Of a stretch of 64,000 nt of DNA, positions 6,352 to 29,435 are shown piece by piece. This DNA is from Candidatus Kaiserbacteria bacterium (lineage in GTDB: Bacteria > Patescibacteriota > Minisyncoccia > Phycocordibacterales > UBA2100), in contig CP070993.1 in the NCBI GenBank assembly GCA_017134395.1, positions 320,210 to 384,209 of the forward strand, read 5' to 3'. The notes below the pieces were generated by a model that was given only the letters and a program-made list of their open reading frames with translations, did not search any database and was not told the origin of the DNA. Made by a program: the position numbers and the translations under genes. How positions within the stretch are numbered: the stretch's first letter is position 1; each line of letters starts with the position of its first letter.

Positions 6352-7002
6352 ATGTTCTTCCATGTACTGAATCGTGGTGTAGAAAAACGACCTATAGTCC
6401 ACGATGATATTGACCGAATACGTTTTGTTCATGACCTTTTCATATTCAACAACAAGTGCTCTGTAGACCCAAATCATAGGCTTAAAGAAAATCCATTTGG
6501 TGACCAAGGTAGAGACCCTTTAGTGCATATACATGCGTGGTGTCTTATGGATAATCACTATCACCTACTTCTCTCTCCTGTCGATAATGATGTCGCAAAT
6601 ATTTCGCTTTTCATGAAAAAGTTAAATATGGGGTATGCAAAGTACTTTAATGAAAAATATGAGCGCTCGGGCTACCTGTGGCAAGGAAAGTACAAAAAGA
6701 TAGAAATAGAAAGAGATGCACATTTTCTCTATATCCCTTTCTATATCCATCTTAACCCGCTTGACTACACCCATCCAAATTGGCGCAACGGATCTATTAA
6801 GAATCTAAAAAAGATGTTGTCTGATTTATCTTCATATCGCTGGAGTAGTTACCTAGATTATATGGGCACCAAAAATTTTCCTTCTGTTATAGAAGAACAA
6901 ACATTACATGAAGTGCTCGGTTCGTCATCTAGTCAGAAAAAGCAAATTGCTCAAATTGTTACACAAGCAGATGTAGCTACTCTCTCGAACAACTTCGAAT
7001 AA
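6352..7002 (+). CDS. HuH-family Y1 transposase, REP-associated tyrosine transposase (RAYT) / IS200-like TnpA family
   Basis: 216 aa. The N-terminus is FHVLNRG.EKRPIV, the HuH motif is CLMDNHYHLLLSP, and the C-terminal region is GYAKYFNEKYERSGYLWQGKYK (catalytic-Tyr WQ..Y region). It is flanked on both sides by the family-A palindromes. Confidence 0.65.
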   Translation: MFFHVLNRGVEKRPIVHDDIDRIRFVHDLFIFNNKCSVDPNHRLKENPFGDQGRDPLVHIHAWCLMDNHYHLLLSPVDNDVANISLFMKKLNMGYAKYFNEKYERSGYLWQGKYKKIEIERDAHFLYIPFYIHLNPLDYTHPNWRNGSIKNLKKMLSDLSSYRWSSYLDYMGTKNFPSVIEEQTLHEVLGSSSSQKKQIAQIVTQADVATLSNNFE

Positions 7003-7095: not shown

Positions 7096-7135
7096 TTAAT
7101 TAAATTTAATTTAATTTAATCTTATCTTATCTTAT
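7096..7135. repeat. pentanucleotide tandem repeats (TTAAT/TAAAT)x5 followed by (CTTAT)x3
   Basis: ttaat taaat ttaat ttaat ttaat cttat cttat cttat. The last CTTAT unit overlaps the stop codon (7132..7134) and last codon of the giant gene. Confidence 0.7.
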
Positions 7136-19100: not shown

Positions 19101-22100
19101 TATATTCTGAATCTGGTGTTGCTTGAATACCTACACTCCCATTAGAATCAATAATAAACGGAGTTGTATCGCTTGCTGAATCGTTCACAACAAAACTGTT
19201 GCCCGTACCTGTGTTAGTGATGGAGAGTACTTCAGTACCATCTGCTGCTATGTCAGTTGAAGCATCGAGTGCAAGCGCATCCTTAAATTCAGTGAAATCG
19301 AGCGTGTCGGCAGTAACATCAGCACCGTCAACGGTGGTGGTTGAGACAACACCTGAGCTGTTGGTGGTGAGGATGCCTCCGGTGAGTGCGCTAAGAGTAA
19401 GTGCTGATTCAAGTATGGTGTTGCCGGTGATACGTGCGGTGCCTGAGACATCTAGTTTGTATGATGGCGCAGCGTTTCCAAGACCTAACTGCCCAGTATT
19501 ATCAATATAAACAGTCTGAGTGTTATTGGAACCTCCTCCACGCAACTCTAACTTATGTGAATTAGAGTTCTCACCGATGTATGTATTTTGGTTACTAAAA
19601 TAGATATGAGAATTATCGGGACTCAACCCTATAGAGCCAGCAACATCGAGCGCATACGATGGGGTGCTGTCGCCAATCCCCACATTTCCACTACTCACAT
19701 CAGCAAACAATGCGGGAGTACTTGAGGTACCGACGCGTAGGTCGCCCCAGACGTCGAGTGCTGATGCGGGTGAAGTAGTGCCGATACCGACGTTGCCACC
19801 ATCTGCTATCACAATTCCGTCGCCAGCACCTTCACCCCATACATTGAGGTAACCAAAATTAGAGGCTTCGTTGTATCCGATAACAAGGGCGTCATCTGCA
19901 ATTGCGCTTTGTCCTATTGCTATGAAGTCAACATCGTTATCATCTGCATTAGTATTAAAGAAGCTTGCTATGTTTACCGTTCCACTTGAATCAGCTTCTA
20001 CATGCAATTTGGAGTTTGGCGAGGTGGTGCCAATACCGACGTTGCCTCCGGTTGATGGATTGATGTAAGTTTCTGCTCCTTCCAACCATAAATTTTTGTA
20101 AGAAGATGCGCCACGATCGTATGCCTGAACAAATCCATATCCGTTATATCCTAATTCGACTCCAGCACCGGAGGCTGTCATTGACGGCGCTCCAGTTGCA
20201 CGAAGATTTCCGGATACATCTAGAGTTGCCACAGGCGACGCCACCCCCACCCCAACTCTATTCGTTGAACTATCAATCACGAGAGTGTTTGCATCAAAGT
20301 TGAGATCAGCAGAGTTGGTGTCGAGGTCGAAGGTGGTGGTGGCGTCTACGGTGAGTGCATCTTTGAATTCAGTGAAGTCGAGTGTGTCTGCGTCGATGAC
20401 ACTTGCGTCGATAGTGGTGGTTGAGACGACACCTGAGCTGTTGGTGGTGAGGATGCCTCCGGTGAGTGCGCTGAGAGTAAGTGCTGATTCAAGTATGGTG
20501 TTGCCGGTGATACGTGCGGTGCCTGCTACGGTGAGTTTTTCAGCGGGAGTGGTGGTGCCGATACCGACGTTACCTAAATTATTTATCACAATCCCTTTAC
20601 TTGAACCATCAAAACCGTCTCTAGTAATTTTTAAGTTGTCTTCAGAATAATCAACCCCAATGAAACCGTATCTGGGTGTGCCATCAGCATCAGATGCCAT
20701 TCTGATGAATGAGTTGTCTGTATCATTTGTACTCAACCCAATATCTGCAATTCCGGTTGTTGAAAGTACATCTAATTTCCTACCTGGACTACCTGTACCA
20801 ATCCCAACCCTGTTCGTTGAACTGTCAATGTACAAGGTGTTTGAGTCGAAGTTTAAGTCAGCGGAGTTGGTGTCGAGATCGAAAGTTGTGGTGGTATCTA
20901 CCACTAGTGAGTCTGAGAGCTGTGCGAAGTTGAGTGAGTCGTTAACGATGTCTAAGGTGACGGCTGCTGATTCAGTACCAGAATTAGAAACCGTAAAGAA
21001 AGCGTTGCCTGCGTCTGCAAGCGTTGCGAGATAATTACCTGTTGTGTGTGTACCGAGTGTGATGAGGTTGTTAAGTGTGGTGGTTCCTGTGCCTCCGTTG
21101 GTTACAGGAAGAACTCCAGTGACCTCAGTGGTGAGATCAACCGAGGTACCAAGTGTTGTTTCGAGTGATCCTGAATTGAGAGTAAGTCCAGTACCAGTGA
21201 AGTCGGTGATTGTTTCTGAGTTGGTGCGGAATCCACCAGAGGCTCGTGTGACACCAACAACGTCGAGTGGATATGATGGAGTTACTCCTATACCAAAATT
21301 ACCAGATGAATCGAAACGAGCCACCTCTGTATTTGACGTACTAAACAATATCGCGCCAGCTTCCCTGTTGATAATAGCTAGATTTAGTCCGTTTCCTTGA
21401 ATAAGGCTACCGTCAGCAGCCAAAGTGCCTGTTGTTCCGTTAGTAAGTTTTAATTCGGGAAATGAAGTTGCATTGATGTGTAGCCCTGTTCCTCCACCAG
21501 CAAGAGCAGGTGCCGCGGTACCAATACCCACATTTCCTGCTATTTCTATGTCCCCATCACTTTGTGCTACCAACAATTCTGTACCTGCAGAATTTTCCAA
21601 ACGGATTGAACCACCACTTACTATTGGCCTGATATTTGAAAGCCACGCTATGTCAGCACCGTCATTCAATTGTAAATCTCCATCGATATGCAACTTCGAT
21701 CCAGGTGTTGTGGTACCAATACCGACGTTGCCTGCTCCATTAATGATCATTTGTGTATCGAGAGTTCCGTTCGAAGTGGAAAATCGCAAATCGCCGTACT
21801 CTGCACCAGATTCATTTTCAGAACTTATACGAGCACCTATATAATTTTCAGGACTTGCATCATTATTATCCCAATTCTGAAAATCTAAACGTCCATAATC
21901 TGCTCCCGCACTTTGCTTTGCGCCTCCAATGGTAACGGTGCGTTGTACATCAGCACTTCCCCCTCTATCTGCAACTATGTTCCCACCGTAAATATGTAGT
22001 TTCTCACTTGGTGAAGTAGTACCGATACCGATGTTGCCATCCACACCAACAGTCAGTACGCGACTACCACTGAAATCATCAGCTACAAAAATAGGTGCAG

Positions 22101-25044
22101 TTTGCGTATTAGAGCCTACAAGATGCAGTGTTGGTACAGTTGTAGTGCTTGAATCATTTTGAATAAAGAACGGTTGGTTTATATCAAACCGTTCGGACGT
22201 TGAATCCCATTTAACGACAGCATTTGGTACTACTGTTCCGCGGAAAAAGACAAGGTTCGAATCCTCCGTATCAACGGAGGCATTATCTGTATTAATCGTG
22301 AATGAATTATTACTCGTGCCTCCAATAGTTGTTGAAGCTGCAGAGATACTGTTCACGTTGATGTTATCAGCGTAAATTTCGTCCCAATAATATGATGGCG
22401 AACCGAGATCTCGCACTGCATTTACGTCAGGGATTAAATCTGAATTGATAGATGCATTAACGGTCAATGTATCAGAAGATGTGTCTCCGATAATGTTTGC
22501 ATTTCCGTTTACCGTTAAGCTACCGGTTACTGTTGTTGTTGCGAGATTCGCGCTGTTCGTTGCGACAAGATTAGTTGTTGTTGCGTTTGTTGCTGTGAGA
22601 TTTGTAAAAATGCTTGTAAGCGAAGTGAAGAGTGAGGTGTAAAAATTAGTTGAAGTTGCATTGGTAAATACAGAATTTGTTGCAACCAAATTTGTTGATG
22701 TTGCGTTAGTAAACACACCTGTACTTGGAGTTGCTGCACCAATGGGTGTGTTTTCGATGGTTCCTGCGGTGATGGTGAGGTCGTCTGCAACGTTTGCGTC
22801 TGGAAGAACTCCTGTTACGTCTGCTGTGAGGTCTATGAGTGACGTTGCAACACTACCCGCTGTTGCCTTTAGAAAGCCTGTGAGTGAGCCGAGTGAAAGT
22901 GAGGCAATTGTTGTTGTAGCGAGGGTTGTGGTACCGGTTGCAACGAGATTCGTTGACGTTGCATTTGTTGCAGTTAAATCAGTTACGACGCCGGTCGTAA
23001 TAGTTGCATCCGTAATAGTTGTTGTAGCAAGATTTGAATTTCCTGAAACGATGAGTGTTCCTGATGTTGTGTCGTTTGCAGCAAGATTTGTGATTGTCGT
23101 AGTCGCGAGAGTTGCTGAGTTGGTTGCAACAAAATCAGTTGTTGTTGCGTTGGTAAACGTGGCTTCAGTCGCGGTTAGGTTTGTTGTGAATGTGTTCGTG
23201 CTGGTTGCGTTCACTGCGGTAACATTTGTAAATTCGGCGGTGAGTGCTGAGAGGAATGAGCTAAAGAAATTAGTACTCGTTGCATTTACCAATACAGAAC
23301 TTGTTGCAAAAAGATTCGCTGTCGTGGCATTTGTTGTGAGTAAGTCGGTAATATTTCCTGTTGTAATAGTTGCATCGGTGATGGTTGTGGTTGCAAGGTT
23401 CGCGCTGTTCGTTGCGACAAGGTTTGTTGTTGTTGCGTTGGTGAGTATTGCATCATCTGCGGTGAGATTAGCAAATGCACCAGTGATGGCAGTGATAAGC
23501 GAAGTGTAAAAATTGGTACTCGTTGCGTTGGTGAGTACTGCGTCTGTTGCTACAAAGTTTGTGGCAGTTGCGTTGTTGACAGTGAGTTCTGTGATGGTCG
23601 TGGTTGCGAGAGTAGTAAGACCTGTTGCAGTAAAATCATTTACGGTAAGTGCACCTCCGAGAGATGTAGCTCCAGTCACTGAAAGATTCCCAGCAATACT
23701 TACATTATCACCAAACGTTGCTGCATTATTTACAGAAAGTGTCGTGGCTGCAACTGATGTATTGGTAATTCGTGAATTACTAATATCAACATCGCCAAGA
23801 TTATCGATACGCTGTGTAAGAGCTACTGCATGGAAGTTTCCGGCAACACCGCCGGCGTTTCTTGTCGAAACGCGCACTATTTCCTGACGTAATTCATTTT
23901 CTAACTGTTGCAGATCTACCAGCGATACACCGCTTTGAGTAACGATACGTTGTGTTTCTACAACACGTTCTACTACTGGTTGGTTAATTACATTGGTTAT
24001 ATTTCCTGAACCAGTTTGTTGTATCGGTACATATAGTGCATCGGTGTTTGGCGTTGTGGTAACAGTAATTTGAGGAGTATCTGTATTGTTCTGTGCAATA
24101 GCTTTTACTGAAAGTTCAACACGACCACGGCTATTTCCTGAATGTACGAACATCAAACTCGAACCGATGTCAGCATTAACCCCAGCAAAGAAACCTTGAA
24201 CATTAACATATACTTTTCCGAACAAATCCAATGCGCTCACTTGCGCCACTACGTTTTTTCCCAAAACAGAAGCTGCTGGCTGTGAAGCAAAGTCGTCTAG
24301 AGCGATAACTGAATTACTAAAATCTGTGTTGATCTTTGTAATAAGATTAGGTAACGCATCAAAAACACTTGCAACCTTAATTATTTCTTCTTCGAAAGTA
24401 TCAAGTGCAGTAGTTCGATACTGTGCATGAGAAAGTGCTGAGGTACTAAACACCAATGTGACTGCAGTTATGAGAGCCACGGACTTTTGCACAAAAGTGT
24501 ACACAGGATTCGCGGGCACAATTGGCGTACGAACAATTACCTCTTGCCGAAGACCATCGGCGGCAGCACCAGTTTCAAGCAAACGCTTTCGGAAGTACGT
24601 ACCGGTGATTGGTTGTTCTAGTTTGTGAACACTAACGGCCTTTTGTACACTTTTGGCTTTTGAAACAATTGGGGTAACGAGATTCTTTTCTACCTTATTT
24701 TTGTTTGCTGCGTATACTTCTTCTGCAATTTCTTTTGCCTGCTTTGCGTGTGCAGCAATTTTCTGTGCAAGAATTTTTTGTGCAGGAGCAATTTCTGGTG
24801 TCTTATATTCGTCCTTACGCTCTTTAGAAAGTTCTTCCTTGCGTACTACACGAGCATGTTCGATTCGTACAATGTGCTCCTTTAATGAAGTCTCTTCGAC
24901 AAACCACGCTCGTCCGATTCGGCGACAACTCACAGAACCTTCGCGGCACATTTTTCCAATATAGTCAGGAGTATACCCAGCAGCTTTACCAGCGGCATCC
25001 GATGAAAGGTACTTTTTGTTGTCGAGAGTTAAATGTTTGCTCAC
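7132..25044 (-). CDS. giant (5970 aa) membrane-anchored, fibre-like surface protein. It has an N-terminal excisionase-type HTH-like module, one TM helix, and a very long extracellular region. That region contains about 48 GNVGIGTTxPxxKL repeats, phage tail-fibre-like NxAIGYxAL repeats, a C1q/TNF-like domain, a peptidase-S74-like intramolecular chaperone motif, an Ig-like domain and an acidic T/E/V-rich tail.
   Basis: One uninterrupted 17,913-nt ORF, essentially impossible by chance. The start is GTG at 25044, with no ATG in frame until residue 32 and no SD within 20 nt. Residues ~12-50 read YLSSDAAGKAAGYTPDYIGKMCREGSVSCRRIGRAWFV, which is HTH_17-like. The TM helix is FVQKSVALITAVTLVFSTSAL at 24425..24500. 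The repeated motifs are listed in the findings. Confidence 0.85.
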   Translation of the reverse strand: MSKHLTLDNKKYLSSDAAGKAAGYTPDYIGKMCREGSVSCRRIGRAWFVEETSLKEHIVRIEHARVVRKEELSKERKDEYKTPEIAPAQKILAQKIAAHAKQAKEIAEEVYAANKNKVEKNLVTPIVSKAKSVQKAVSVHKLEQPITGTYFRKRLLETGAAADGLRQEVIVRTPIVPANPVYTFVQKSVALITAVTLVFSTSALSHAQYRTTALDTFEEEIIKVASVFDALPNLITKINTDFSNSVIALDDFASQPAASVLGKNVVAQVSALDLFGKVYVNVQGFFAGVNADIGSSLMFVHSGNSRGRVELSVKAIAQNNTDTPQITVTTTPNTDALYVPIQQTGSGNITNVINQPVVERVVETQRIVTQSGVSLVDLQQLENELRQEIVRVSTRNAGGVAGNFHAVALTQRIDNLGDVDISNSRITNTSVAATTLSVNNAATFGDNVSIAGNLSVTGATSLGGALTVNDFTATGLTTLATTTITELTVNNATATNFVATDAVLTNATSTNFYTSLITAITGAFANLTADDAILTNATTTNLVATNSANLATTTITDATITTGNITDLLTTNATTANLFATSSVLVNATSTNFFSSFLSALTAEFTNVTAVNATSTNTFTTNLTATEATFTNATTTDFVATNSATLATTTITNLAANDTTSGTLIVSGNSNLATTTITDATITTGVVTDLTATNATSTNLVATGTTTLATTTIASLSLGSLTGFLKATAGSVATSLIDLTADVTGVLPDANVADDLTITAGTIENTPIGAATPSTGVFTNATSTNLVATNSVFTNATSTNFYTSLFTSLTSIFTNLTATNATTTNLVATNSANLATTTVTGSLTVNGNANIIGDTSSDTLTVNASINSDLIPDVNAVRDLGSPSYYWDEIYADNINVNSISAASTTIGGTSNNSFTINTDNASVDTEDSNLVFFRGTVVPNAVVKWDSTSERFDINQPFFIQNDSSTTTVPTLHLVGSNTQTAPIFVADDFSGSRVLTVGVDGNIGIGTTSPSEKLHIYGGNIVADRGGSADVQRTVTIGGAKQSAGADYGRLDFQNWDNNDASPENYIGARISSENESGAEYGDLRFSTSNGTLDTQMIINGAGNVGIGTTTPGSKLHIDGDLQLNDGADIAWLSNIRPIVSGGSIRLENSAGTELLVAQSDGDIEIAGNVGIGTAAPALAGGGTGLHINATSFPELKLTNGTTGTLAADGSLIQGNGLNLAIINREAGAILFSTSNTEVARFDSSGNFGIGVTPSYPLDVVGVTRASGGFRTNSETITDFTGTGLTLNSGSLETTLGTSVDLTTEVTGVLPVTNGGTGTTTLNNLITLGTHTTGNYLATLADAGNAFFTVSNSGTESAAVTLDIVNDSLNFAQLSDSLVVDTTTTFDLDTNSADLNFDSNTLYIDSSTNRVGIGTGSPGRKLDVLSTTGIADIGLSTNDTDNSFIRMASDADGTPRYGFIGVDYSEDNLKITRDGFDGSSKGIVINNLGNVGIGTTTPAEKLTVAGTARITGNTILESALTLSALTGGILTTNSSGVVSTTTIDASVIDADTLDFTEFKDALTVDATTTFDLDTNSADLNFDANTLVIDSSTNRVGVGVASPVATLDVSGNLRATGAPSMTASGAGVELGYNGYGFVQAYDRGASSYKNLWLEGAETYINPSTGGNVGIGTTSPNSKLHVEADSSGTVNIASFFNTNADDNDVDFIAIGQSAIADDALVIGYNEASNFGYLNVWGEGAGDGIVIADGGNVGIGTTSPASALDVWGDLRVGTSSTPALFADVSSGNVGIGDSTPSYALDVAGSIGLSPDNSHIYFSNQNTYIGENSNSHKLELRGGGSNNTQTVYIDNTGQLGLGNAAPSYKLDVSGTARITGNTILESALTLSALTGGILTTNSSGVVSTTTVDGADVTADTLDFTEFKDALALDASTDIAADGTEVLSITNTGTGNSFVVNDSASDTTPFIIDSNGSVGIQATPDSEYKLDVRNPGTTVLVGVHSNSTGRPAGIEFGTGSATNNYGFVGYDGSTINFGSVYAFGVDTTISNRGTEYIRLTGGNVGIGTTTPDGTLHVFDTGNADILAERSGGAKVKVQAQASAGQIGTQTSHPLQLITNAGARLTIDTSGNVGIGTTSPASALDVWGDLRVGTSSTPTLFTDVSSGNVGINTATPALGLTIAQNADDNGLRVYGYDDRSTRYGEFYVDATGYLNVNALVNGYIKSNGADLLQWGSGFLRVNNNTPLRFGSGTDYSVGYYNVDDTFRITDGTDLTSTPRLTLDNTGNVGIGTTTPSGKLHVTSADQLVSTFERTSGSGYTQVDIKANVAGDTGNSVLTFSDTSGSPGLIDYEHANDSLAFSTSGSEALRIDASGNVGIGTTTPAEKLHVSEGDILLDNNQFLKGSLASGFDRNLIGYDATENLIIGHSGTSVTGDVNIYAGTASKKIGFFPDGATEAVRITDSGNVGIGTTSPVANLAVVGEVLATTGFYSENTTITGGTPFGILVGGADDSTNIFDIAAGGAYGKEGGWIRFPRGGVGTNASRAWIGSTYTGNYGDDIRIYSSKLGNNNQTATSSALNAVFRQDYVSLHTGSAGASDTSERLRITSAGNVGIGTSTPGNMNFRTNLDIAGGTYGGAVTIYGDDAATKLSGWFDSGTPQAAKFGTQSSHQLDLMVGNTERLSIDTSGNVGIGTSTPEAKLVVWDSTDVSSSGGGALRVGASNTDFIAIDNNEIQAIGSGVASSLYLNTDGGTVFIHDATDGVFAVNSDDLYVTGAGNVGIGTTTPASKLDVWGDLRVGTSSTPALFTDVSSGNVGIGTASPSQKLIVYQASAGTPAVIETDGGFTALQLKTGTGLVNLVATGGDFNVQTGGAERFRITNTGNIGIGTTTPANQLTTTGSVQFAALTGGILTTNSSGVVSTTTIDASLIDADTLDFTEFKDALTVDATTTFDLDTNSADLDFDNNTLYIDSSANMIGIGDPTPSNKLDVQGALRVGSGYNNVVAPSNGAIIEGNVGIGTTGPGAKLDVEGDVIIATGLNVGGDLGAATGTIYAYDGVNGGNFGKDSGDLFDIRDGQIFVRQNDNWEYQFLTSDFSPYFNDANDLGTASKQWQDLYTIDGFFSGNIGIGTTTPEETLHIYNSDPSVKLTNASSPSSYRSVISHNWDTNNGFGIYSGTNLTQVMGAANNVGTVFFPNGNVSIGTTSASYKLDVHNENGGVLARFKDSDSVHEGIIIAGDVNGGWIGNNALATGEGFYIQDSLNGIRTYAGGVEVSRALATSYTFNELGADIDFRVEGVGEVNALFVEGSSGNVGIGTASPDTALEILSTDQPQFQITYNSTNKAAFQRSGGDFKLQVSDSGGTLQDRLTVNESGNIGIGTTNPDSILTGTALSISTQGARTTGDGIGSLNFITNDASYTGTYADGIGAEISAISDSATGAAYGLAFTTGTITSSNRAERLRITSTGNVGIGTTTPLGKLHISSAVSGAPAVSSSADELVVEGIGPAGISIVGGTSSDTSIFFGDSGSQTMGRIVYDNNANDLSLWTTATERLTIDSSGNVGIGTTTPDATLSIYETAVANPLRVYSNTYNAVALFNSSDNNAVITISDDDTTSYLLAEDGYTSIGGNNALDAGNLNINNTSGNVGIGTTTPEQKLEVVGGNIQIDNNQYLKSRLTTGTSVNLIGYNSGNQTIVGANAEVKLDGTATLQPPGNIVFQPGGTSDINATLDSDTDLNVGSGMLFVEGNTGNVGIGTTTPDSLLHVAGVSKFGYDGIGLDSSLVQLFGGSTTSGNQQSFSFEVGDTGLSDLNTKNLVVRGASGSSDIAFSPSTSYPGLLMLDGSTGNVGIGTTSPASTLDVWGDLRVGTSSTPALFTDVSSGNVGIGTASPSSKLDISGSGALLEVGTALTINDASTYGLDSNQKLRITRNDPGIVFKESDASNQEWFVHSLGGNFSLRDLTAGSVYPFTVQAGAGQDSLLVQSDGDVIMNQGNVGIGTDSPSTNLQVVQSGTAITASAQTVASFQRSGDTIVSIISSPTTKSFLDFGDTDSAVMGRIIYDNVGNGFSFRTNGVNDQMVVTSAGNVGIGTTNPSSKLDVLGYINTSNGYKLEGNTILQASTTTGSLFVGNTGNTTHTGNENTALGTSALSSLTTGTKNVAVGYQALENATSTASNVAIGYRALRSSTAGGAAYIGGSSIAIGVQSGMNNTTGFANSFLGANAGLNNTTGNANVFLGYYTGIGNIDGSSNVAIGGLSNAIGTLRFNTSPDSVVAVGAAAAAGLSNYYNEGGTYVGTQSGYSAATSSNYNTFLGFKSGYGVTTGSNNTIIGAATLSGAQNQITSGANNISIGYNVAVPSATANNQLVIGNLIYGTGLDGTQSTLSSGNVGIGTSSPASKLDVWGDFRVGTSSTPALFADVSNGNVGIGTSTLAGWGLSVKTGISSGDAVRIGTPGGYPGLAFFDNAGDQEANIGVHQTTGDLHLWTNSASDLVIDSTGNVGIGTTSPQALLHLYKNNPDLAIFQGSDLAGYITYKNNSNALVGYSGYATPGQVFSDALTNAMVIRGEYAVQFGTGSGSDLTINSSGNVGIGTTTPTTKLSVNGALSLASTTPATTVNALYNVSGSLYWNGSAVGSGAALFTDGGTTTYLTSLTDDLAIGGTTSDAPLFFDESASALSLNPFGTSAGNTGEVRFEELEANGDNYVALKAPDAITSNTTFTLPTADGTAGQFLTTDASGNLSFATAGDGISPSFSVHRNNVAQSIPGNTWTKVAWTTEHFDTNSDFASDRFTPTVAGKYLLTTKTRFESVSDSDQTYMAIYKNGALYSSDYKTSTGTFRTNQVSVVVDANGTTDYFEVYVHQSSASNKDINGWSAYTSFTGSRIDGGNGLWTHNSPDISYTAGNVGIGTTTPTEKLDVIGVVRSGNDSRAGFLAGPRDSSGSNAWLYNPTGDDGRLFIDGAGDVLTFTNTGNVGIGTTTPATKLQLVENGSNGSIVNLLTLDTNTQNVSVAGSGQIISFQGSSDVYSGAIGGYGDGSNGGIGIWGGGTISGNPELYVNDAGNVGIGTTTPSAKVWIYDSSAGAVGSPISNGDELVLESSGNTGLTIFNTASSVGSVLFGDPSDNDIGRIQYDHATDRLFFSAGAANIMHLVGGNVGIGDSTPDHKLDVAGNIGLTASSYINWGDTTGTTGYGFRDNAGTIQYKNNAGAWTDFSASSGGGWTDGGTDVYLATGTDNVGIGTATPARDLDLSTTGQITFGDNVTTDGSQGIYWHTASGYGIYRTAGAWTANTYQQLQVSFATGIVLDPGSGVYDRSHVGVIGGVSIGDSYYTTELDNGLAVQGSVGIGTTTPSQVLDVQGNINVTGSIIADAGTHVLRLTDNVNTVINPITAGGSVYLNWDEGSTGGGIKFGDGAATVVGSVSRAGDLQLDGALSIDGTGNNYLLGNVGIGTTTPESKLSVNLGSNDSTVNFAVSGVSPVLKNTITTTGTVARQDLSSITMGVGSTASSNYQGYLTFSTTPSAGSLTERMRILEGGNVGIGIDTPDTKLHVEGTSISSFTGTSDGVLRISSPYTANYFNSIDFAGASGSSAVPLARIAAKITPSGTELHFGTSNSYGSGITNDAIVIDPAGEVGIGVTNPTYKLQLNGQPAANGYTAWTNYSDRRLKENITELSTEDTTTLERISELRPVTYNYNELTGYDEETRSRRISGFIAQELKVTFPEMVGTTTINGTEYFDTNLSDLPLYLIQAIKELWVIVQENTKRIAELIDWQSSKDIQIAALEERLVAVEAQLAGVASATTQTEATSTTTSTPPTLTLIGTNPAEIALNANYSDLGITAQDADGNDLSITLTLNGEAVTTIDIDTTTDATHTITYSATDTNEQTATIERTVIVGTGTPTEEPVVEDTATSTPAVVIEDDTATSTDPVIVEEEVVEDTTATSTEPVVNDTTEPVVEETVEEEVVEDTVDEVIEPVATDTPAEETATTTDSTI

Positions 25045-25502
25045 AAAGTGTTTGATGACTTGTTCGGAACTCCGTTATATCTATATAATACTAGGTATTT
25101 CGGCACTCTCCCAACTCTCGCTTGGGGATAAAGTCTGCGCCTTTTTTTGACAAAAAGGACTCTGAAAACAGTCAAAAACCTTCTACTAAAAATAATCAAT
25201 ATCTGGCAATCTCAATTTTTATGCATAATCAAAGTTTCCCAGATACTTTTTTATCTTGAAGAACCTTCCTAACTCACTGCAACTATTTTTATTACTCGAT
25301 AAGCACGATAACCACCTCCTAACCCTAACAACCCAGGAAAGTACTCAGTGACTTCACAGTCCCTTGTAAGCAGCCAAAGATTACCATTGTCGAGATCTTT
25401 AAGGGACAACGATGTGTTCTTCTTAGCGTCTAATTGTTCTTAGAAATATAAACAAAGCGGTTTGTGGGCAGCATTTGTATAGAATTATATAAAATGGCTC
25501 TA

Positions 25503-25561
25503 AATCTCGGCTAGTGCAGGTATACAGTGCCAATCTCGGATATTATCTCGCTATATCTCGG
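25503..25561. promoter_or_regulatory. cluster of four direct ATCTCG[G/C] repeats in the 807-bp region upstream of the giant gene
   Basis: atctcgg at 25503, 25533 and 25555, and atctcgc at 25545. Spacing is irregular. The sequence between and around them is AT-rich, with TATAAT-like hexamers nearby. Confidence 0.3.
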
Positions 25562-25680
25562 TTATCCGAGGTTCATATTTGCACATCTTATCTTGCACTT
25601 TGCTGCCCTTTAGGCGTTTAAAACTAAATAATTCATACTACCATGCAGGAAAAGAGAGCTTATAAGTCCAGTAATCTGCG

Positions 25681-25717
25681 AGTACCAATTCAGACATGGG
25701 ATGTCTGAATTGGTACT
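25681..25717. repeat. 37-nt perfect palindrome agtaccaattcagacat-ggg-atgtctgaattggtact (family A-related core GACAT-NNN-ATGTC)
   Basis: 17-bp perfect arms. It lies between the stub-paralog stop and the giant gene start. Confidence 0.6.
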
Positions 25718-25769
25718 ATCCTGTATAACTCACCCCTCCCACACACATAATGCCTACATACCATCAAAA

Positions 25770-25797
25770 ATATATGGACATCGGATGTTCATATATG
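25770..25797. repeat. REP-like hairpin palindrome, family A copy 4 (tatatggacat-cgg-atgttcatata). It doubles as the likely intrinsic terminator of the upstream minus-strand gene.
   Basis: One arm mismatch relative to copies 1-3. On the minus-strand transcript the hairpin is followed by UUUUUGAUGG. It lies 55 nt downstream of the stop of gene 25852..26904. Confidence 0.55.
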
Positions 25798-25851
25798 TGA
25801 ATTTTTTAGGAAACGTAAGAGGAGAAAGCTAAAAAAGCTATTATTGTAGTT

Positions 25852-26904
25852 CTATTCAGAAGAGTAGTTGAATTCTGATCCAGGTAGTATGTCTCCGTAC
25901 TTATCTTGCATCATTTCGATGAAAGTATTGTCTTCAAATAAGTTGCTCACAGCATCAAGACCAGAGAGACCAAACAGGTATAGATATGCTCCAGTAGAGA
26001 TAAGAATGAGCGCTAAAATTAGCATGCCTATAACTCCAACAATTGGAAATGAACGCTTTGCGGGTTTACTCTGAATGAAGTAGCTTTCCTCTCGTTCCCT
26101 TTTTTGTACCCCGCCTTCCCGAGATGGTATATTTCTAGGCGTGGTTTGAGTAGTTATCGGTGGAACTGCTCTAGGAGTGGAGACAGGACGAATATCGGGG
26201 TTCATTTGCTTAATTGGAGGGCGTTCACTTAATATATCACCAGACGCATAGGTTTGGGCTTCATTAAATGCAGTTTCTTTTTTTACAGAAGGAATTTCTG
26301 GATTACTTTCAGCTACGTAGCGTACGTTGAAATTGATGTCTCCAGGATCAATATCAGTTTGGATATTTACAGCAACTCCAGTAGCATCCTTTCCAACTGC
26401 TCCCTTCTCAGTACTATAACCTTCAGTGCGTACACCACTGGACTGTGCCTGAACTTCAGCCAGTAGACCATCGTTGTGTTTTTTGTGAGCGATAAGTGAG
26501 TCCTTACCTACAAACCAACGGCGACCTACTTTTCGTGCTTCTAATTCACCACTTCTGGCAAGCTGACCAATATAATCTTGTGCGTAGCCAGTAACAGCAG
26601 CAGCGCGAGATGTTGCGATGTACTCTGTGCCGTCATACTTGAATGTGTCGTCACGAACATTCCCTACCTTCATACCAAGTGCGCTCTTGCCTTGCTCATT
26701 TTTATTTTTTGTATCAGCTTCAACACCATTTTCTTGGTACCGCTTCAACCCATTTTCATCGACATACCAATGCCCAGACACTCGTCGACACTCAATTTTA
26801 TCTTCCCTGCAAAGCTGGCCAATATAGTCCTTCGAATAACCACTCAGCTCTGAAGCACGAGTAGTTGATATTAAAGTGTCATCACCGATAGTAACGTCTT
26901 CCAT
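25852..26904 (-). CDS. membrane protein with two tandem excisionase-type HTH-like modules, a low-complexity linker and a C-terminal TM anchor. It is a 'stub' paralog of the giant protein N-terminus.
   Basis: 350 aa. The modules are RASELSGYSKDYIGQLCREDKIECRRVSGHWYV and SRAAAVTGYAQDYIGQLARSGELEARKVGRRWFV. Both match the giant protein's N-terminal module and the HTH_17 pattern (A..G.s...I..l.R.G.l...rvGrrW.v). The TM helix is IVGVIGMLILALILISTGAYLYLFGL near the C-terminus. Confidence 0.6.
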   Translation of the reverse strand: MEDVTIGDDTLISTTRASELSGYSKDYIGQLCREDKIECRRVSGHWYVDENGLKRYQENGVEADTKNKNEQGKSALGMKVGNVRDDTFKYDGTEYIATSRAAAVTGYAQDYIGQLARSGELEARKVGRRWFVGKDSLIAHKKHNDGLLAEVQAQSSGVRTEGYSTEKGAVGKDATGVAVNIQTDIDPGDINFNVRYVAESNPEIPSVKKETAFNEAQTYASGDILSERPPIKQMNPDIRPVSTPRAVPPITTQTTPRNIPSREGGVQKREREESYFIQSKPAKRSFPIVGVIGMLILALILISTGAYLYLFGLSGLDAVSNLFEDNTFIEMMQDKYGDILPGSEFNYSSE

Positions 26905-26973
26905 TTAAGCATTGTACAATATCCGCCGAGATATGCGAGATCCCCTCTAAAATGTGTGGATAACGTACCTCGC

Positions 26974-28416
26974 TTAAGCGAGTTTAGCCTTTATAAGCTC
27001 TTTAAGCTTTGCAGGATTCGCAGAACCCTTACTGAGTTTCATACCTTGCCCGACAAGATATTGCAGAGCTTGCTCCTTCCCTTCTTTGTATTCTTTTACC
27101 ACTTCTTCATTTTGAGATACAAGCGCTTCTATGATTTCGTTAAGTGCCTCATCATCATTTTGTTGCAGCAGACCTGCTTCCTCTGCCAATTCTTTAATGG
27201 TCTTACTCTGCTCATGAGGTTTAGCTAAGTGTCCAATTAACTCTACGGCGCCATTAGAAGATATGTCGCCTTGAAGTGCCAGTAGTACAAGCTCACTAAA
27301 TTCATTTGGACCTATATTCTCTGTAACATGCTCATTGTTCTCTCCTCGTAATGCCACGAGGTTGTTTGTTATGTAGTTAGAAGCAAGCTTTGCGTGTTTA
27401 GCTTGATCTTCACTATTAGATTGAGATAATTCGACAACGACTCTCTCGAAAAACTCACAAAGTCTTATATCAGCAACATAGGCTTCTACATCCTCTACCT
27501 GTAGCCCGTACGCCTTCTGTAGGCGCTCACGCTTCGCCTGAGGCAGTTCTGGAAGTGTTTCTTGTAAATTGTCTACGGATAGTTCTGGAAGCTCTGAGAG
27601 TTTCAATTTGGGCAAATCTGGCTCTGGGAAGTATCGGTAGTCGGCTGCCTCTTCTTTTACACGCTGACTGAATGTAACGGCTTTATTTTCGTCCCATCCC
27701 CGTGTTTCTTGAATGATATTCTCGCCTTTTTCTATTATTTCAATCTGCCGCTTTATTTCAAAATCTATGGCACGTTCTACTGCTCTGAATGAGTTCAAAT
27801 TTTTTACCTCTACCTTAGTTCCTAATTGACCCTTTACTTTAGAGACGGAGATATTCGCTTCCACTCGCATCTCTCCCTTTTCCATATTAGCATCAGATGC
27901 TTCTAAGGTGCGTAATAGTAACTGTAACTCACGTGCAAATGCTACGGAATCTTTTGCATTATGTAAGACAGGTTCGGTTACCAGCTCCATAAGCGGTACG
28001 CCTGCACGATTAAAATCAACAAGGCTATGGTCTGACTCGTTTGTGTGTGATGAACGAGCAGTATCTTCTTCAAGATGAATACGAGTTAATTCCACACCGT
28101 GTAAGATACCTCCAGAAACGAGTGGAAATTCGTACTGACTCAACTGAAAAGCCTTTGGTATGTCAGGATAAAAGTAATTCTTTCTATCAAACTCAGAGTA
28201 GTCAGCAAGCTCACCGTTCATTGCCAGACCGACACGCAACACCTGCTTTACTGCTTCCTTGTTGATTGTTGGCAAGACACCAGGGTGTGCCATGCACACC
28301 GGACATATATTTACATTTGGTTTTTTTTCGTTTGGGTCGTTCTTAGAATTACAAAACATCTTCGTGTGAGTACGAAGTTCTGCATGCACTTCTAGACCAA
28401 TTGTAGGCTCAAACAT
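26974..28416 (-). CDS. gatB: Asp-tRNA(Asn)/Glu-tRNA(Gln) amidotransferase subunit B
   Basis: 480 aa. MFEPTIGLEVHAEL...CPVCMAHPGVLP is the GatB N-terminal signature. A GatB/YqeY-like C-terminal domain is present. Confidence 0.9.
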   Translation of the reverse strand: MFEPTIGLEVHAELRTHTKMFCNSKNDPNEKKPNVNICPVCMAHPGVLPTINKEAVKQVLRVGLAMNGELADYSEFDRKNYFYPDIPKAFQLSQYEFPLVSGGILHGVELTRIHLEEDTARSSHTNESDHSLVDFNRAGVPLMELVTEPVLHNAKDSVAFARELQLLLRTLEASDANMEKGEMRVEANISVSKVKGQLGTKVEVKNLNSFRAVERAIDFEIKRQIEIIEKGENIIQETRGWDENKAVTFSQRVKEEAADYRYFPEPDLPKLKLSELPELSVDNLQETLPELPQAKRERLQKAYGLQVEDVEAYVADIRLCEFFERVVVELSQSNSEDQAKHAKLASNYITNNLVALRGENNEHVTENIGPNEFSELVLLALQGDISSNGAVELIGHLAKPHEQSKTIKELAEEAGLLQQNDDEALNEIIEALVSQNEEVVKEYKEGKEQALQYLVGQGMKLSKGSANPAKLKELIKAKLA

Positions 28417-28457: not shown

Positions 28458-29435
28458 TTACTTCGTGAGCGACCTTAGGAAAATGATTATCTCGTCAGCA
28501 AATGTCTTTAGTATCTCATCATCATATATTGAGATTGGGTACACTTTGTCGGTTACTTTCTGTAAATCTTTCACACATTTGGCAACTTCCTCTTCTGAAG
28601 CAAGATCCGTTTTGGTTAGTGCAATCATGAATGGTAATTCTGCCATAGCTGGGTCGTACTTCAGCAACTCGTCAAACAGAGCTCGGTAAGCCGATATGGG
28701 GTCTTCTTGCTCAACCGAGATACAGAATATAAGGGTTTTAGTGCGATTTATGTGCTTCAAGAATTTATGACCCAACCCCTTACCAGTAGATGCCCCTTCA
28801 ATAATACCTGGTATATCAGCTATGATATACCCAAACAGGTTCCCGAGATTTGGATCAAGTGTGGTAAATGCATAATCTCCCACTTTTGCTTTTGCATTTG
28901 TAAGCGCATTTAACAGAGAAGATTTACCTGCATTAGGATACCCAACTAAGCCAATGTCTGCTATAAGTTTAAGCTCAACTTCTAAAATATCTCGTTCCCC
29001 AGATTTTCCTTTAGTAGATTCCTGTGGACTTACATTTGTTGAACTCTTAAAGTGCTCGTTCCCGAGACCGCCATTACCTCCTTTCAATATTACATGTTCT
29101 TCTCCTTCTTCGAGAAGTTCGAAAGTCTTACCTTTTTCTTTCAAGGTAACGACAGAACCGATTGGCAAATGTATTACAACATTTTCACCATCAAGTCCAT
29201 GCAAACTACTTTTTCCTCCACCTCCACCGTGACCAGCTTGGAAAATATTATTTCCTCTGTACTTACTAAGGAGTGAATTATCTCGAAAAGCCCGAATGAG
29301 CACATCGCCGCCTCTTCCACCATTGCCACCGGCTGGTCCACCCTTCGGATTGTTTCGATTTGCATGCCATCGAACAACTCCATCGCCTCCATTTCCGGCA
29401 TGAGCCTGTAAAATTATTTCATCAACAAATTTCAT
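28458..29435 (-). CDS. obg: GTPase Obg/CgtA (short form, no TGS extension)
   Basis: 325 aa. The Obg fold begins MKFVDE..AGNGGDGVV.W and is glycine-rich (GGxGGxGG). The G1 motif is GYPNAGKSSL and G3 is DIPG. Confidence 0.9.
   Translation of the reverse strand: MKFVDEIILQAHAGNGGDGVVRWHANRNNPKGGPAGGNGGRGGDVLIRAFRDNSLLSKYRGNNIFQAGHGGGGGKSSLHGLDGENVVIHLPIGSVVTLKEKGKTFELLEEGEEHVILKGGNGGLGNEHFKSSTNVSPQESTKGKSGERDILEVELKLIADIGLVGYPNAGKSSLLNALTNAKAKVGDYAFTTLDPNLGNLFGYIIADIPGIIEGASTGKGLGHKFLKHINRTKTLIFCISVEQEDPISAYRALFDELLKYDPAMAELPFMIALTKTDLASEEEVAKCVKDLQKVTDKVYPISIYDDEILKTFADEIIIFLRSLTK

What the first reader, a model, noticed from the sequence alone, without database searches (positions are those of the whole stretch)
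24414..26904. Shared excisionase-type HTH-like module on the cytoplasmic side of a giant fibre and of an adjacent 'stub' paralog
Three copies of a ~38-aa module are present. One is in the giant protein: S.DAAGKAAGYTPDYIGKMCREGSVSCRRIGRAWFV. Two are in tandem in the 350-aa upstream gene: RASELSGYSKDYIGQLCREDKIECRRVSGHWYV and SRAAAVTGYAQDYIGQLARSGELEARKVGRRWFV. The pattern +A...G.s..yI..l.R.G.l...rvGr.W.v matches HTH_17/excisionase-type DNA-binding domains. Both proteins are predicted N-in single-pass membrane proteins. The giant one carries a ~5750-aa ectodomain and the paralog only ~35 aa. A membrane-tethered DNA-binding head on an adhesin-like fibre, plus a co-oriented ectodomain-less partner, suggests a ToxR/RodZ-like transmembrane coupling of surface contact to DNA or transcription. 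Alternatively, the module may serve a non-DNA role as a cytoplasmic anchoring domain. Either way this pairing does not appear to be a described arrangement.
Basis: inference. Interest (0 to 1): 0.75.

Follow-up and report, generated by a model that had tools for sequence, protein, structure and literature searches.

The report
DNA-binding-type heads on giant surface fibre
In a large group of ultra-small (CPR/Patescibacteria) bacteria, a giant cell-surface fibre and a small neighbouring membrane protein both carry, on the inside of the cell, the same DNA-binding-type domain, a conserved but undescribed arrangement that could link what happens at the cell surface to the DNA.

Summary
The 350-aa gene (25852..26904, -) has two copies, and the 5970-aa gene (7132..25044, -) one N-terminal copy, of a ~55-aa module. 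There are no other copies in the window. The module is a winged helix of the HTH_17 / excisionase / MerR class. The evidence is Pfam, high-confidence AF2 models and 1.4-1.7 Å fits to Pukovnik Xis and BldC, with TraN and RacA also matching. Both proteins have no signal peptide, a 100-160-aa linker, one TM helix and an N-in topology. The giant is a tail-fibre-like, probably trimeric fibre with a Peptidase_S74 chaperone and an Ig-like domain.

This is not a one-off. It is a core-genome cassette of Kaiserbacteria/Paceibacteria. Stub relatives occur in 490 species-level genomes. In 77 of 83 dereplicated loci a module-headed large ORF follows directly. About 7,500 protein clusters share the fibre head.

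Function is untested. My best reading is membrane-tethered DNA binding, giving feedback on the fibre promoter and/or tethering DNA to the envelope. A RodZ-like protein-binding role is a serious rival. It belongs to neither the ToxR nor the RodZ family. I found no description in the literature. I rate it a new variant of a known kind, moderately to highly interesting.

The parts
25852..26904 (-). 'Stub' gene: 350-aa bitopic membrane protein with two cytoplasmic wHTH modules, a disordered linker, one TM helix and a 39-aa external tail
   Evidence: ORF, translation. Pfam HTH_17 E=2.1e-9. 711 homologues, nearly all 300-380 aa and carrying PF12728. AF2 model.
26728..26895 (-). Stub wHTH module 1 (aa 4-59), topology beta-beta-alpha-alpha-beta-beta-alpha
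   Evidence: AF2 pLDDT 90-95. Module HMM 91.5 bits. Invariant Y23 D26 Y27 G29 Q30 L31 R33 W46 across 42 homologues.
26440..26646 (-). Stub wHTH module 2 (aa 87-141) plus a conserved following helix (to aa 155; motif HKKxxDxLLAxVQAQ)
   Evidence: AF2 pLDDT 93-97. Module HMM 89.5 bits. TIGR01764 'excise' E=2.7e-5, below cut-off. Invariant Y107 D110 Y111 Q114 R117 G127 W130 H140.
25972..26043 (-). Stub transmembrane helix (aa 288-311). Basic residues lie on the N side and acidic residues on the C side.
   Evidence: Hydropathy 2.57, flanks +3/-1 against 0/-3. AF2 helix 288-311. Family-wide positive-inside bias.
7132..25044 (-). Giant fibre gene: 5970 aa with a GTG start. Layout: wHTH head, helical/disordered linker, one TM helix, ~5,760-aa Thr/Gly/Ser/Asn-rich Cys-free ectodomain.
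   Evidence: ORF. The N-terminus, including the start, is conserved in L001 and L003. Composition. Pfam.
24808..25035 (-). Fibre wHTH head (aa 4-60) plus a long alpha-3 helix (to aa 79)
   Evidence: Stub-module HMM E~1e-18. AF2 pLDDT 81-89 with the same topology. Foldseek: Pukovnik Xis rmsd 1.4 Å, then TraN, BldC, RdfS and RacA.
24424..24480 (-). Fibre signal-anchor / TM helix (aa ~189-207)
   Evidence: It is the only hydrophobic segment in 5970 aa. A TM follows the module within 250 aa in 136 of 151 representatives.
7933..8124 (-). Peptidase_S74 intramolecular chaperone domain (aa 5641-5704), with the motif NYS|DRRLKENI
   Evidence: Pfam E=3.6e-14, 53.2 bits against a cut-off of 22. The same domain is present in relatives L007, P0128 and P0135.
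7429..7662 (-). Bact_surface_Ig-like domain (aa 5795-5872), followed by an acidic Thr/Glu/Val-rich tail
   Evidence: Pfam E=1.9e-8, 34.7 bits against a cut-off of 27. Sequence.
25072..25104 (-). Fibre-promoter dyad element GCCGAAATACCTAGTATTATATAGATATAACGG. It surrounds a -10-like TATTAT and lies 28-60 nt upstream of the GTG. It is a candidate operator.
   Evidence: The family consensus is CCGAAATAnCTAGTAAAATAnTAGnTAAnTCGG. Of 30 CTAGTAAAAT sites in 1.15 Mb of loci, 28 lie upstream of fibre genes. A promoter-like site is found at 25114..25085. RNAalifold covariation is negligible.
25123..25131 (-). TTATCCCCA box, about 80 nt upstream of the fibre start
   Evidence: It sits at a fixed position and orientation upstream of fibre genes in most loci. 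It is not specific to module genes, because it also occurs upstream of secA.
26955..26963 (-). TTATCCACA box, about 50 nt upstream of the stub ATG. This is the only exact copy in the window.
25490..25575 (-). Array of CGAGAT repeats at roughly 11-nt spacing within the 807-nt stub-to-fibre spacer. It forms a highly conserved block shared with L001.
   Evidence: The motif is widespread in the loci (606 sites), so it is not specific to this cassette.

Best explanation
**What it is.** This is a conserved two-gene cassette of Kaiserbacteria/Paceibacteria (CPR). It encodes two N-in, single-pass membrane proteins whose cytoplasmic N-termini are winged-helix domains of the MerR / excisionase / BldC class.

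- The 350-aa 'stub' carries two such domains in tandem, like the single-chain tandem-wHTH repressor TraN.
- The 5970-aa fibre carries one. The fibre has an S74 chaperone domain, which in characterised proteins folds trimeric fibres, so it is probably a trimer with three heads.

**How it most likely works (inferred).**

1. The heads bind double-stranded DNA at the inner face of the membrane, reaching it through 100-160-aa flexible linkers.
2. The stub acts as a dedicated membrane-tethered regulator or tether.
3. The fibre's own heads report how much fibre is anchored in the membrane. This feeds back on the cassette's promoters. The candidate site is the fibre-specific dyad around the -10 at 25072..25104.
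4. As a consequence, the locus or nucleoid is tied to the fibre base.

**Shown versus inferred.** Shown here: the fold class, the architecture, the stub topology, the conservation of the pairing, and the conserved cis-elements. Inferred: DNA binding, the target site, and the direction of regulation.
For: **Fold**
- Both stub modules and the fibre head are confident beta-beta-alpha-alpha-beta-beta-alpha domains (pLDDT 81-97).
- The best structural matches are all dsDNA binders: Pukovnik Xis (1.4-1.5 Å), BldC-DNA (1.6-1.8 Å, TM 0.72-0.78), TraN, RdfS, RacA-DNA, GlnR-DNA and pSK1 Par-DNA.
- Pfam HTH_17 scores above cut-off for the stub, and 27 of 30 sampled modules match it.

**Precedent**
- TraN has two wHTH domains in one chain. 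It represses the promoter of a cell-envelope machine and also its own promoter (PMC6158623).

**Sequence features**
- Modules 2 and F have basic wings (RK/RQ-V-G-R/N-R-W) and net charges of about +2.5.
- Soluble 85-91-aa versions of the same module subtype, with very basic tails, exist elsewhere.
- The recognition-helix signature (Y-x-Q-D-Y-I/V-G-Q-L-x-R) is invariant in the stub over ~30% overall identity. This implies one conserved ligand.

**Architecture and distribution**
- The order is always head, then a 36-167-aa linker, then a TM helix.
- In 77 of 83 loci the stub is followed directly by a module-headed large ORF.
- Stub relatives occur in 490 species-level genomes, and ~7,578 protein clusters share the fibre head.

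**Cis-element**
- The dyad-symmetric element is specific to fibre promoters (28 of 30 occurrences), is conserved as sequence, and overlaps a -10-like hexamer.
Against: - There is no experimental or direct computational evidence of DNA binding.
- The recognition helix carries an invariant Asp and Gly where canonical HTH_17 has Thr/Ser, Tyr and Arg.
- Module 1 is nearly neutral (mean +1.0, range -4 to +5).
- The fibre's own recognition helix is less conserved than the stub's. One shared operator for all three modules is therefore not guaranteed.
- AF2 does not pack the two stub modules into a TraN-like internal dimer (rmsd 10-11 Å over both domains, pTM 0.35).
- The TTATCCACA and CCGAGAT motifs are not specific to the cassette.
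- The dyad could simply be part of the promoter, or a 5'-end mRNA element.
- The fibre's TM flanks show no positive-inside bias.
- The stub has no sensor domain, so ToxR-style signal input is not evident.
Confidence: 0.4

Rival explanations
1. **Protein-binding scaffold (RodZ-like logic).** The wHTH heads have lost DNA binding. They instead bind a conserved cytoplasmic protein (cytoskeletal, divisome or secretion component) or each other. This would position or mechanically anchor the fibre base, with the stub acting as adaptor.
For: - The conserved face includes an invariant acidic residue and hydrophobics (D-Y-I/V-G-Q-L).
- Module 1 is close to neutral and sometimes acidic.
- All three modules share the DY signature, as expected for one common partner.
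- The cassette sits among housekeeping genes (secA, obg, gatB, gap) and looks like a core gene.
- From my own knowledge, RodZ uses its HTH to bind MreB.
- The stub has conserved short motifs in its disordered linker (NVRY, Y196) and in its external tail (GDxLPGxExxY). These look like protein-contact motifs.
Against: - Every characterised structural neighbour binds DNA.
- Basic wings are retained in module 2 and in the fibre head.
- Small soluble basic versions of the module exist.
- No candidate partner gene is consistently adjacent.
Confidence: 0.25
2. **Chromosome-envelope tether (RacA-like logic).** The heads bind DNA with low or distributed specificity and fasten the nucleoid to the membrane at the fibre base. 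The purpose would be segregation, polarity or mechanical anchorage of a very long fibre, not gene regulation.
For: - RacA and the pSK1 Par DNA-binding domain are among the structural matches.
- The layout of wHTH, long helix, long linker and membrane anchor parallels RacA's wHTH, coiled coil and DivIVA anchor. RacA as a DNA-membrane tether is described in PMC6593407.
- There would be multiple heads per assembly: three per trimeric fibre and two per stub.
- The family is lineage-wide and core-like.
Against: - The strict conservation of a specific recognition helix argues for a specific site.
- The window shows no origin-like features: there is no GC-skew turn and no gene-strand switch at the locus.
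- Binding sites elsewhere in the genome could not be examined.
Confidence: 0.2
3. **Export or quality-control head.** The folded N-terminal domain serves biogenesis of the giant protein. It would act as a cytoplasmic stopper and targeting element that fixes type-II orientation and recruits SecA or chaperones. The stub would be a co-factor.
For: - The head is always strictly N-terminal and followed by a signal-anchor.
- secA is syntenic, 4-5 kb upstream, in all loci examined.
- secA, stub and fibre promoters share the TTATCCACA box.
Against: - A simple stopper would not need an invariant recognition-helix surface or a tandem-module partner.
- The secA synteny is part of a long conserved housekeeping block, so it carries little weight.
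- I know of no precedent for an HTH_17 domain acting in export.
Confidence: 0.08

Closest known systems
TraN of pIP501 (and AM32 of pAMbeta1): single-chain tandem winged-helix repressor of a Gram-positive type IV secretion operon
   Same: - It has two excisionase/MerR-like wHTH domains in one polypeptide and is the top Foldseek hit for the stub.
- The module profile gives a weak hit to AM32, PDB 6g1t. That AM32 is a TraN-type protein from pAMbeta1 is from my own knowledge.
- It regulates genes of a cell-envelope machine and its own promoter (PMC6158623).
   Different: - TraN is cytosolic and 120 aa long. Its two domains pack into an internal dimer.
- The stub's domains are separated by a ~30-aa low-confidence linker and are not packed in the model.
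- The stub is membrane-anchored and has no T4SS context.
ToxR-like bitopic transcription factors (ToxR, CadC, TcpP, VtrA)
   Same: Cytoplasmic N-terminal DNA-binding domain, flexible linker, one TM helix, external C-terminus. They act as one-component links from the envelope to DNA.
   Different: - Their DNA-binding domain is OmpR/PhoB-type (Trans_reg_C), not HTH_17. No such Pfam match is found here.
- They have a folded periplasmic sensor. The stub has only 22-90 external residues, and the fibre has a ~5,760-aa structural ectodomain.
RodZ
   Same: A roughly 300-350-aa bitopic protein with an N-terminal cytoplasmic HTH, a linker and one TM helix, encoded among housekeeping genes. It is the precedent for an HTH that binds a protein (MreB) rather than DNA.
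   Different: RodZ has an Xre-type HTH and a C-terminal DUF4115 domain. Neither is detected here. RodZ has no tandem HTH and no fibre partner.
RacA (B. subtilis chromosome anchor) and MerR-family wHTH plus coiled-coil proteins
   Same: wHTH of the same fold class followed by a long helix. It tethers DNA to the membrane or pole (PMC6593407).
   Different: RacA is soluble and reaches the membrane through DivIVA. There is no sequence-level relationship, and no effector domain as in MerR.
BldC / Xis / RdfS small excisionase-type DNA-binding proteins (Pfam HTH_17, TIGR01764)
   Same: Same domain family and fold (1.4-1.8 Å). From my own knowledge, they bind repeats cooperatively as multimers.
   Different: Those are 50-70-aa soluble proteins, and the excisionases sit next to integrases. 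Here the domain is fused to membrane proteins, there is no integrase, and the recognition-helix signature is distinct (DYIGQL).
Phage tail fibres / endosialidase-type fibres with a C-terminal Peptidase_S74 intramolecular chaperone
   Same: The giant's C-terminal S74 domain carries the S|D-x-R-x-K-x-N-I motif, and its shaft is repetitive and Thr/Gly/Asn-rich.
   Different: This fibre is a cellular core gene, membrane-anchored by an N-terminal TM helix with a cytoplasmic head. It is 6-10 times longer, and ~270 aa (Ig-like domain and acidic tail) follow the S74 domain.

Membership tests
Pfam HTH_17 (PF12728) winged helix-turn-helix | Sequence match above the gathering threshold | tested here: met
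   - Stub: 37.9 bits against a cut-off of 27, in two stretches.
- 27 of 30 sampled modules match at E<=0.01.
- The window's fibre head alone scores only 16 bits. It is joined to the family by the stub-module HMM at E~1e-18.
Pfam HTH_17 (PF12728) winged helix-turn-helix | Excisionase/MerR-type fold (alpha1-turn-alpha2, beta-hairpin wing, alpha3) | tested here: met
   AF2 pLDDT 81-97. Foldseek: Xis 1.4-1.5 Å; BldC 1.6-1.8 Å with TM 0.72-0.78.
Pfam HTH_17 (PF12728) winged helix-turn-helix | Binds double-stranded DNA | not testable with these tools
   The evidence is only indirect: basic wings, soluble basic homologues and conserved promoter elements.
Excisionase / recombination directionality factor (TIGR01764 'excise') | Model match above the NCBIfam cut-off | tested here: not met
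   Stub module 2 scores 24.4 bits against a cut-off of 28.8. The fibre head gives no hit.
Excisionase / recombination directionality factor (TIGR01764 'excise') | Small soluble protein encoded next to an integrase on a mobile element | tested here: not met
   These are membrane proteins in a syntenic housekeeping block (transketolase...gap | fibre | stub | gatB | obg ... secA), with no integrase.
ToxR-like transmembrane transcription activators | OmpR/PhoB-type wHTH (Trans_reg_C) at the cytoplasmic N-terminus | tested here: not met
   Pfam finds HTH_17 only.
ToxR-like transmembrane transcription activators | Bitopic N-in topology with an external sensor domain | tested here: inconclusive
   N-in single-pass topology is supported. 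However, the stub's external part is 22-90 aa, and the fibre's is a structural shaft rather than a recognisable sensor.
RodZ | Xre-type HTH (HTH_25) plus C-terminal DUF4115 | tested here: not met
   Neither family is reported for the stub, even at E<=1.
MerR family regulators | MerR-type HTH model match with a dimerisation coiled coil and a C-terminal effector domain | tested here: not met
   There is no MerR/MerR_1 Pfam hit. Similarity is only at fold level. A long helix does follow each head, but there is no effector domain.
TraN-like tandem wHTH | Two wHTH domains in one chain, packed as an internal dimer through their wings | tested here: inconclusive
   The tandem domains are present. The model leaves them unpacked (rmsd 10-11 Å to TraN over both domains, pTM 0.35).
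Peptidase_S74 (intramolecular chaperone) fibre proteins | S74 domain above threshold, with the Ser-Asp cleavage motif, near the C-terminus of a repetitive fibre | tested here: met
   53.2 bits against a cut-off of 22 at aa 5641-5704. The motif NYSDRRLKENI is present. Relatives have the same domain. Autocleavage and trimerisation were not tested.

The most novel reading that the evidence does not exclude
The giant fibre would be a mechanical or occupancy sensor wired directly to DNA. Its cytoplasmic wHTH heads, together with the stub, would bind the fibre promoter dyad.

Two variants are possible:

- **Cis-feedback.** The head is made minutes before the rest of the 18-kb message is translated, so it acts on its own promoter.
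- **Release on contact.** Host contact, or breakage or pulling of the fibre, changes head clustering or releases the head. An intramembrane (S2P-type) protease could do this, in a Notch-like way, and reprogramme transcription on attachment.

Either variant would be a direct surface-filament-to-gene signalling device in epibiotic CPR bacteria.
Probability: 0.12. Interest if true: 0.9.

Novelty: new variant of a known kind. Interest (0 to 1): 0.62.

Why it matters
- CPR/Patescibacteria are thought to live attached to hosts, but how they sense and respond to contact is largely unknown, and they have very few regulators.
- A core, lineage-wide cassette that fuses a DNA-binding-type domain to the cytoplasmic end of the main giant surface fibre, with a tandem-domain membrane partner, is a concrete and testable candidate for such a link.
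- Failing that, it is a candidate for how a 6,000-residue fibre is anchored and its 18-kb gene controlled.
- It also extends the HTH_17/excisionase fold to a large class (thousands of clusters) of membrane-tethered proteins.
- It supplies defined reagents: heads of 60-160 aa and a conserved 33-bp dyad.

Tried and rejected
1. **Sequence searches of PDB.** Searches with the stub, the family profile and the module profile gave nothing significant. Fold comparison was needed.
2. **Word-indexed homologue searches.** Searches with the fibre N-terminus and with the module profile returned only 7 and 24 mostly fragmentary hits. The exhaustive profile search and the genome scan were informative instead.
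3. **TTATCCACA (DnaA-box consensus) as a specific operator or as oriC.** Rejected.
   - It also lies upstream of secA. Part of the 'gatB' cases are a coding coincidence in the SecA C-terminus (V-I-H-K-A).
   - The window has no skew turn or strand switch at the locus.
   - Its spacing to the -10 varies, so it is not a -35 element.
4. **CCGAGAT repeats as a specific operator.** Rejected. They occur at 606 sites across the loci, in many intergenic places.
5. **The promoter dyad as a structured RNA.** RNAalifold gives 6 pairs and a covariation term of -0.13. Rfam finds nothing in the window or in six loci.
Rejected.
7. **afdb50 fold library.** It was unavailable.
8. **Mobile-element origin of the cassette.** Rejected on synteny.

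Full report
**1. What is in the window.**

The window comes from a Candidatus Kaiserbacteria (Patescibacteria/CPR) genome. The 350-aa product is 100% identical to a protein of a Kaiserbacteria MAG on a 688-kb contig.

On the minus strand lie obg (28458..29435), gatB (26974..28416), a 350-aa ORF (25852..26904), an 807-nt spacer and a 5970-aa ORF (7132..25044, GTG start). The wider neighbourhood is housekeeping:
- on one side: transketolase, rpe, rpiB and gap;
- on the other: a TrpR-like gene, a holin-IV-like gene, FMN reductase, secA and a Wzy_C/TPR protein.

**2.

The three ~55-aa copies are exactly as described.
- BLASTP of the stub against the giant's first 420 aa aligns only the modules (E=3e-13 and 1e-11).
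- An HMM made solely from the two stub modules of 42 homologues finds the giant's N-terminus at E~1e-18. It finds nothing else in the six-frame translation of the 64-kb window.

**3. What the module is.**

*Sequence.*
- Pfam HTH_17 matches the stub above threshold.
- TIGR01764 'excise' is just below its cut-off.
- The giant's head alone is sub-threshold. It is unambiguously linked through the family profile.

*Structure.*
- AlphaFold2 models give the same beta-beta-alpha-alpha-beta-beta-alpha domain for stub aa 4-59 and 87-141 (pLDDT 90-97). The giant's aa 4-79 gives the same (pLDDT 81-89). Each domain is followed by a long helix.
- Foldseek against the PDB returns TraN of pIP501, Pukovnik Xis (1.4-1.5 Å), BldC-DNA complexes (1.6-1.8 Å, TM 0.72-0.78), RdfS, RacA-DNA, GlnR-DNA and pSK1 Par-DNA.

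*Conservation.*
- The recognition helix has a distinctive, nearly invariant signature: G-Y-x-Q-D-Y-I/V-G-Q-L-x-R.
- The wing reads R-x-G-x-x-W-Y/F-V.
- Asp-Tyr and the wing Trp are invariant in all three module classes.

**4. Architecture and topology.**

Neither protein has a signal peptide.

*Stub.* Two heads are followed by a conserved helix (HKKxxDxLLAxVQAQ), about 130 disordered residues, one TM helix (aa 288-311) and 39 external residues. Across 83 family members the N-side TM flank has 3.55 K+R against 1.30 on the C-side. The N-side is higher in 72 of 83, so N-in is robust.

*Giant.* It has one weakly hydrophobic TM (aa ~189-207) and neutral flanks, so the positive-inside rule does not decide its orientation. 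Several features make N-in the only sensible orientation:
- a folded basic N-terminal region (net +13);
- its only two Cys lie in the head;
- the remaining 5,760 residues are Cys-free;
- its domains are extracellular types.

The ectodomain is Thr/Ala/Asn-rich, then Gly/Thr/Ser-rich. It ends with a Peptidase_S74 intramolecular chaperone domain (aa 5641-5704, motif NYS|DRRLKENI), an Ig-like domain and an acidic tail. From established knowledge of S74 domains, which mediate folding and self-cleavage of trimeric fibres, the protein is probably a trimer. That would put three heads at its cytoplasmic base.

**5. It is a lineage-wide cassette.**

*Synteny.* Homologues of the stub (711 at E<=1e-3, almost all 300-380 aa) come from Kaiserbacteria/Paceibacteria. 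In eight loci spanning 82% down to ~31% identity the order Wzy_C/TPR - secA - ... - gatB - stub - large ORF - (gap) is kept. The large ORF always starts with the module followed by a TM.

*Genome scan.* A scan of one genome per GTDB species found 490 stretches encoding stub relatives, all in Patescibacteria-type MAGs. Of 83 dereplicated loci with a complete stub:
- 77 have a module-headed ORF on the same strand within 1.2 kb;
- 3 lack downstream sequence;
- 3 are exceptions.

Most of these ORFs run off contig ends, as giant genes do. Complete ones reach 1,353-2,506 aa, and 5,970 aa here.

*Variants.*
- The fibre is split into an anchor and a shaft in L006/L015.
- L005 has an extra 166-aa single-module stub, followed by a 5,118-aa RCC1/WD40/LamG giant.
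- Some giants have two modules on the head (L032, L063, L065, L067).
- Some loci have additional divergent module-headed giants.

*Exhaustive profile search.* A search with the fibre N-terminus finds 7,578 cluster representatives (4,819 at E<=1e-10). Among the best 150, the module starts within the first 30 residues in 148 of 151. A TM follows within 250 aa in 136 of 151. Large members again carry S74 and Ig-like domains, with or without Laminin_G_3.

*Soluble versions.* Free 85-91-aa versions with basic tails also exist. One lies 2.6 kb upstream of an S74 plus Ig-like protein. Another lies directly downstream of a Peptidase_M50 gene.

**6. Cis-elements.**

I compared 77 stub-to-fibre spacers and 82 gatB-to-stub spacers. 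Three over-represented motifs emerged.

- **(A) TTATCCACA.** It sits at a fixed position and orientation upstream of both genes. In the window it is at 26955..26963, and as TTATCCCCA at 25123..25131. It also lies upstream of secA. Some instances are a coding coincidence in SecA. It is therefore a lineage promoter-proximal element, not a cassette-specific operator.
- **(B) CCGAGAT.** It forms an ~11-nt-spaced array at 25490..25575, but it is widespread in the loci.
- **(C) CTAGTAAAAT.** It is specific: 28 of 30 occurrences in 1.15 Mb are upstream of fibre genes. It is the centre of a ~33-bp imperfect dyad, CCGAAATAnCTAGTAAAATAnTAGnTAAnTCGG. The dyad surrounds a -10-like hexamer 20-45 nt before the start codon (window 25072..25104).
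  - The element is conserved as sequence, with little covariation.
  - That fits a protein-binding site or promoter better than an RNA stem.
  - It is the best candidate operator, but nothing ties it to the heads beyond co-conservation.

**7. Mechanism.**

*Shown:* fold class, N-terminal cytoplasmic position, long flexible tethers, conserved pairing and a conserved fibre-promoter element.

*Inferred:* the heads bind DNA at the membrane. I consider membrane-tethered DNA binding the most likely reading (confidence 0.4). In this reading the stub acts as a TraN-like tandem-wHTH regulator or tether. TraN is a single-chain tandem wHTH that represses an envelope-machine operon and its own promoter (PMC6158623). 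The fibre heads would provide feedback and tether DNA to the envelope.

*Evidence against DNA binding:*
- an invariant Asp and Gly in the recognition helix;
- a near-neutral module 1;
- no packed tandem dimer in the model;
- no sensor domain on the stub.

*Rivals:*
- a RodZ-like protein-binding scaffold (0.25);
- a RacA-like nucleoid tether without regulation (0.2);
- an export or biogenesis head (0.08).

**8. Comparison with known systems.**

The domain is a member of HTH_17. The proteins are not members of:
- the excisionase/RDF class (below cut-off, no integrase, not mobile);
- ToxR-like receptors (no Trans_reg_C domain);
- RodZ (no Xre HTH, no DUF4115);
- MerR regulators (no model match, no effector domain).

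The fibre is a member of the S74-chaperone fibre class, but it is unusual in being a cellular, N-terminally membrane-anchored giant.

Full-text searches found no paper combining HTH_17 with Patescibacteria/CPR, and none describing HTH-headed giant surface proteins. The library is incomplete, so this is absence of evidence only.

**9. Verdict.**

- The feature is real, widespread and apparently undescribed.
- It is a new variant of the known kind 'membrane-tethered HTH proteins', joined to a tail-fibre-like giant adhesin.
- Its function remains to be tested.

Noticed in passing
window 26955..26963 (-), 25123..25131 (-); loci L040:5270, L047:5323, L050:5058, L060:5190: - TTATCCACA is identical to the DnaA-box consensus.
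- It is a strongly over-represented, orientation-fixed, promoter-proximal element in this lineage: 116 exact sites in 1.15 Mb against ~9 expected.
- It lies ~40-55 nt upstream of -10-like hexamers of the secA, stub and fibre genes.
- The factor that binds it is unknown.
   Followed up: partly
L040:5270-5606, L047:5323-5600, L050:5058-5350, L060:5190-5500: secA in many relatives is preceded by a ~250-330-nt leader with conserved blocks (…GTGCAATAATGAAA…GCATC…GTGCGGGTCGAnnTTAGCAC…). This may be an undescribed cis-regulatory RNA. Rfam finds nothing. The window's own secA has only a 141-nt upstream spacer.
   Followed up: no
window 25490..25575 (-) and many loci: - CCGAGAT / ATCTCGG motifs occur about four times more often than expected (606 sites).
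- They often form 7-bp hairpins (ATCTCGG-N4-CCGAGAT) after stop codons, or ~11-nt-spaced direct repeats.
- The sequence is conserved across distantly related genomes, which is unusual for REP-like elements.
   Followed up: partly
window 26905..26925 (-) and stub promoters in most loci: In many relatives a -10-like GGTATA(T)ACT lies only 6-8 nt before the stub ATG, which suggests a leaderless or near-leaderless mRNA. In the window, TACAAT lies 8 nt before the ATG.
   Followed up: no
window 6352..7002 (+): A 216-aa IS200-like Y1 transposase ORF (Pfam Y1_Tnp E=2.6e-7) sits between the fibre gene and gap. In L007 the same position holds a 23S_rRNA_IVP/bAvd-like gene, of the kind associated with diversity-generating retroelements.
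   Followed up: no
L006:11273-21116 (= L015, complete chromosome OZ253947.1): The fibre is split into a 427-aa head-TM-base protein and a separate 4,245-aa shaft ORF 90 nt downstream. This is either a genuine split or a frameshift or assembly error.
   Followed up: no
L005:11181-21092: This relative has three module genes in a row: a two-module stub, a 166-aa single-module stub with a TM, and a 5,118-aa giant. The giant's ectodomain is RCC1/WD40/Laminin_G_3 rather than S74-type. The head is therefore used on different kinds of giant surface proteins.
   Followed up: partly
L090:4365-5268, L091:3401-4304; L089:3472-3729: - Soluble 85-91-aa versions of the module exist.
- One is encoded 14 nt downstream of a Peptidase_M50 (site-2 protease) gene, near comEC and rpsL.
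- Another lies 2.6 kb upstream of a 585-aa S74 plus Ig-like protein.
- The M50 adjacency is suggestive for a proteolytic-release idea, but it may be coincidence.
   Followed up: partly
window 24925..24948 (-) and 26788..26811 (-): - The giant's only two cysteines form a C-x6-C pair in the head (MCREGSVSC).
- Stub module 1 has the same pair (LCREDKIEC).
- In most other clades both positions are Ala.
- This may be a clade-specific redox or metal feature, or it may be neutral.
   Followed up: no
window 25681..25717 and 25770..25796: There are two strong palindromes downstream of the stub stop: perfect 17-nt arms, and 13-nt arms. Both are conserved in the nearest relative. One change in the relative creates a G-U-compatible pair, which hints at a transcribed hairpin (terminator or small RNA) rather than a protein site.
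   Followed up: partly
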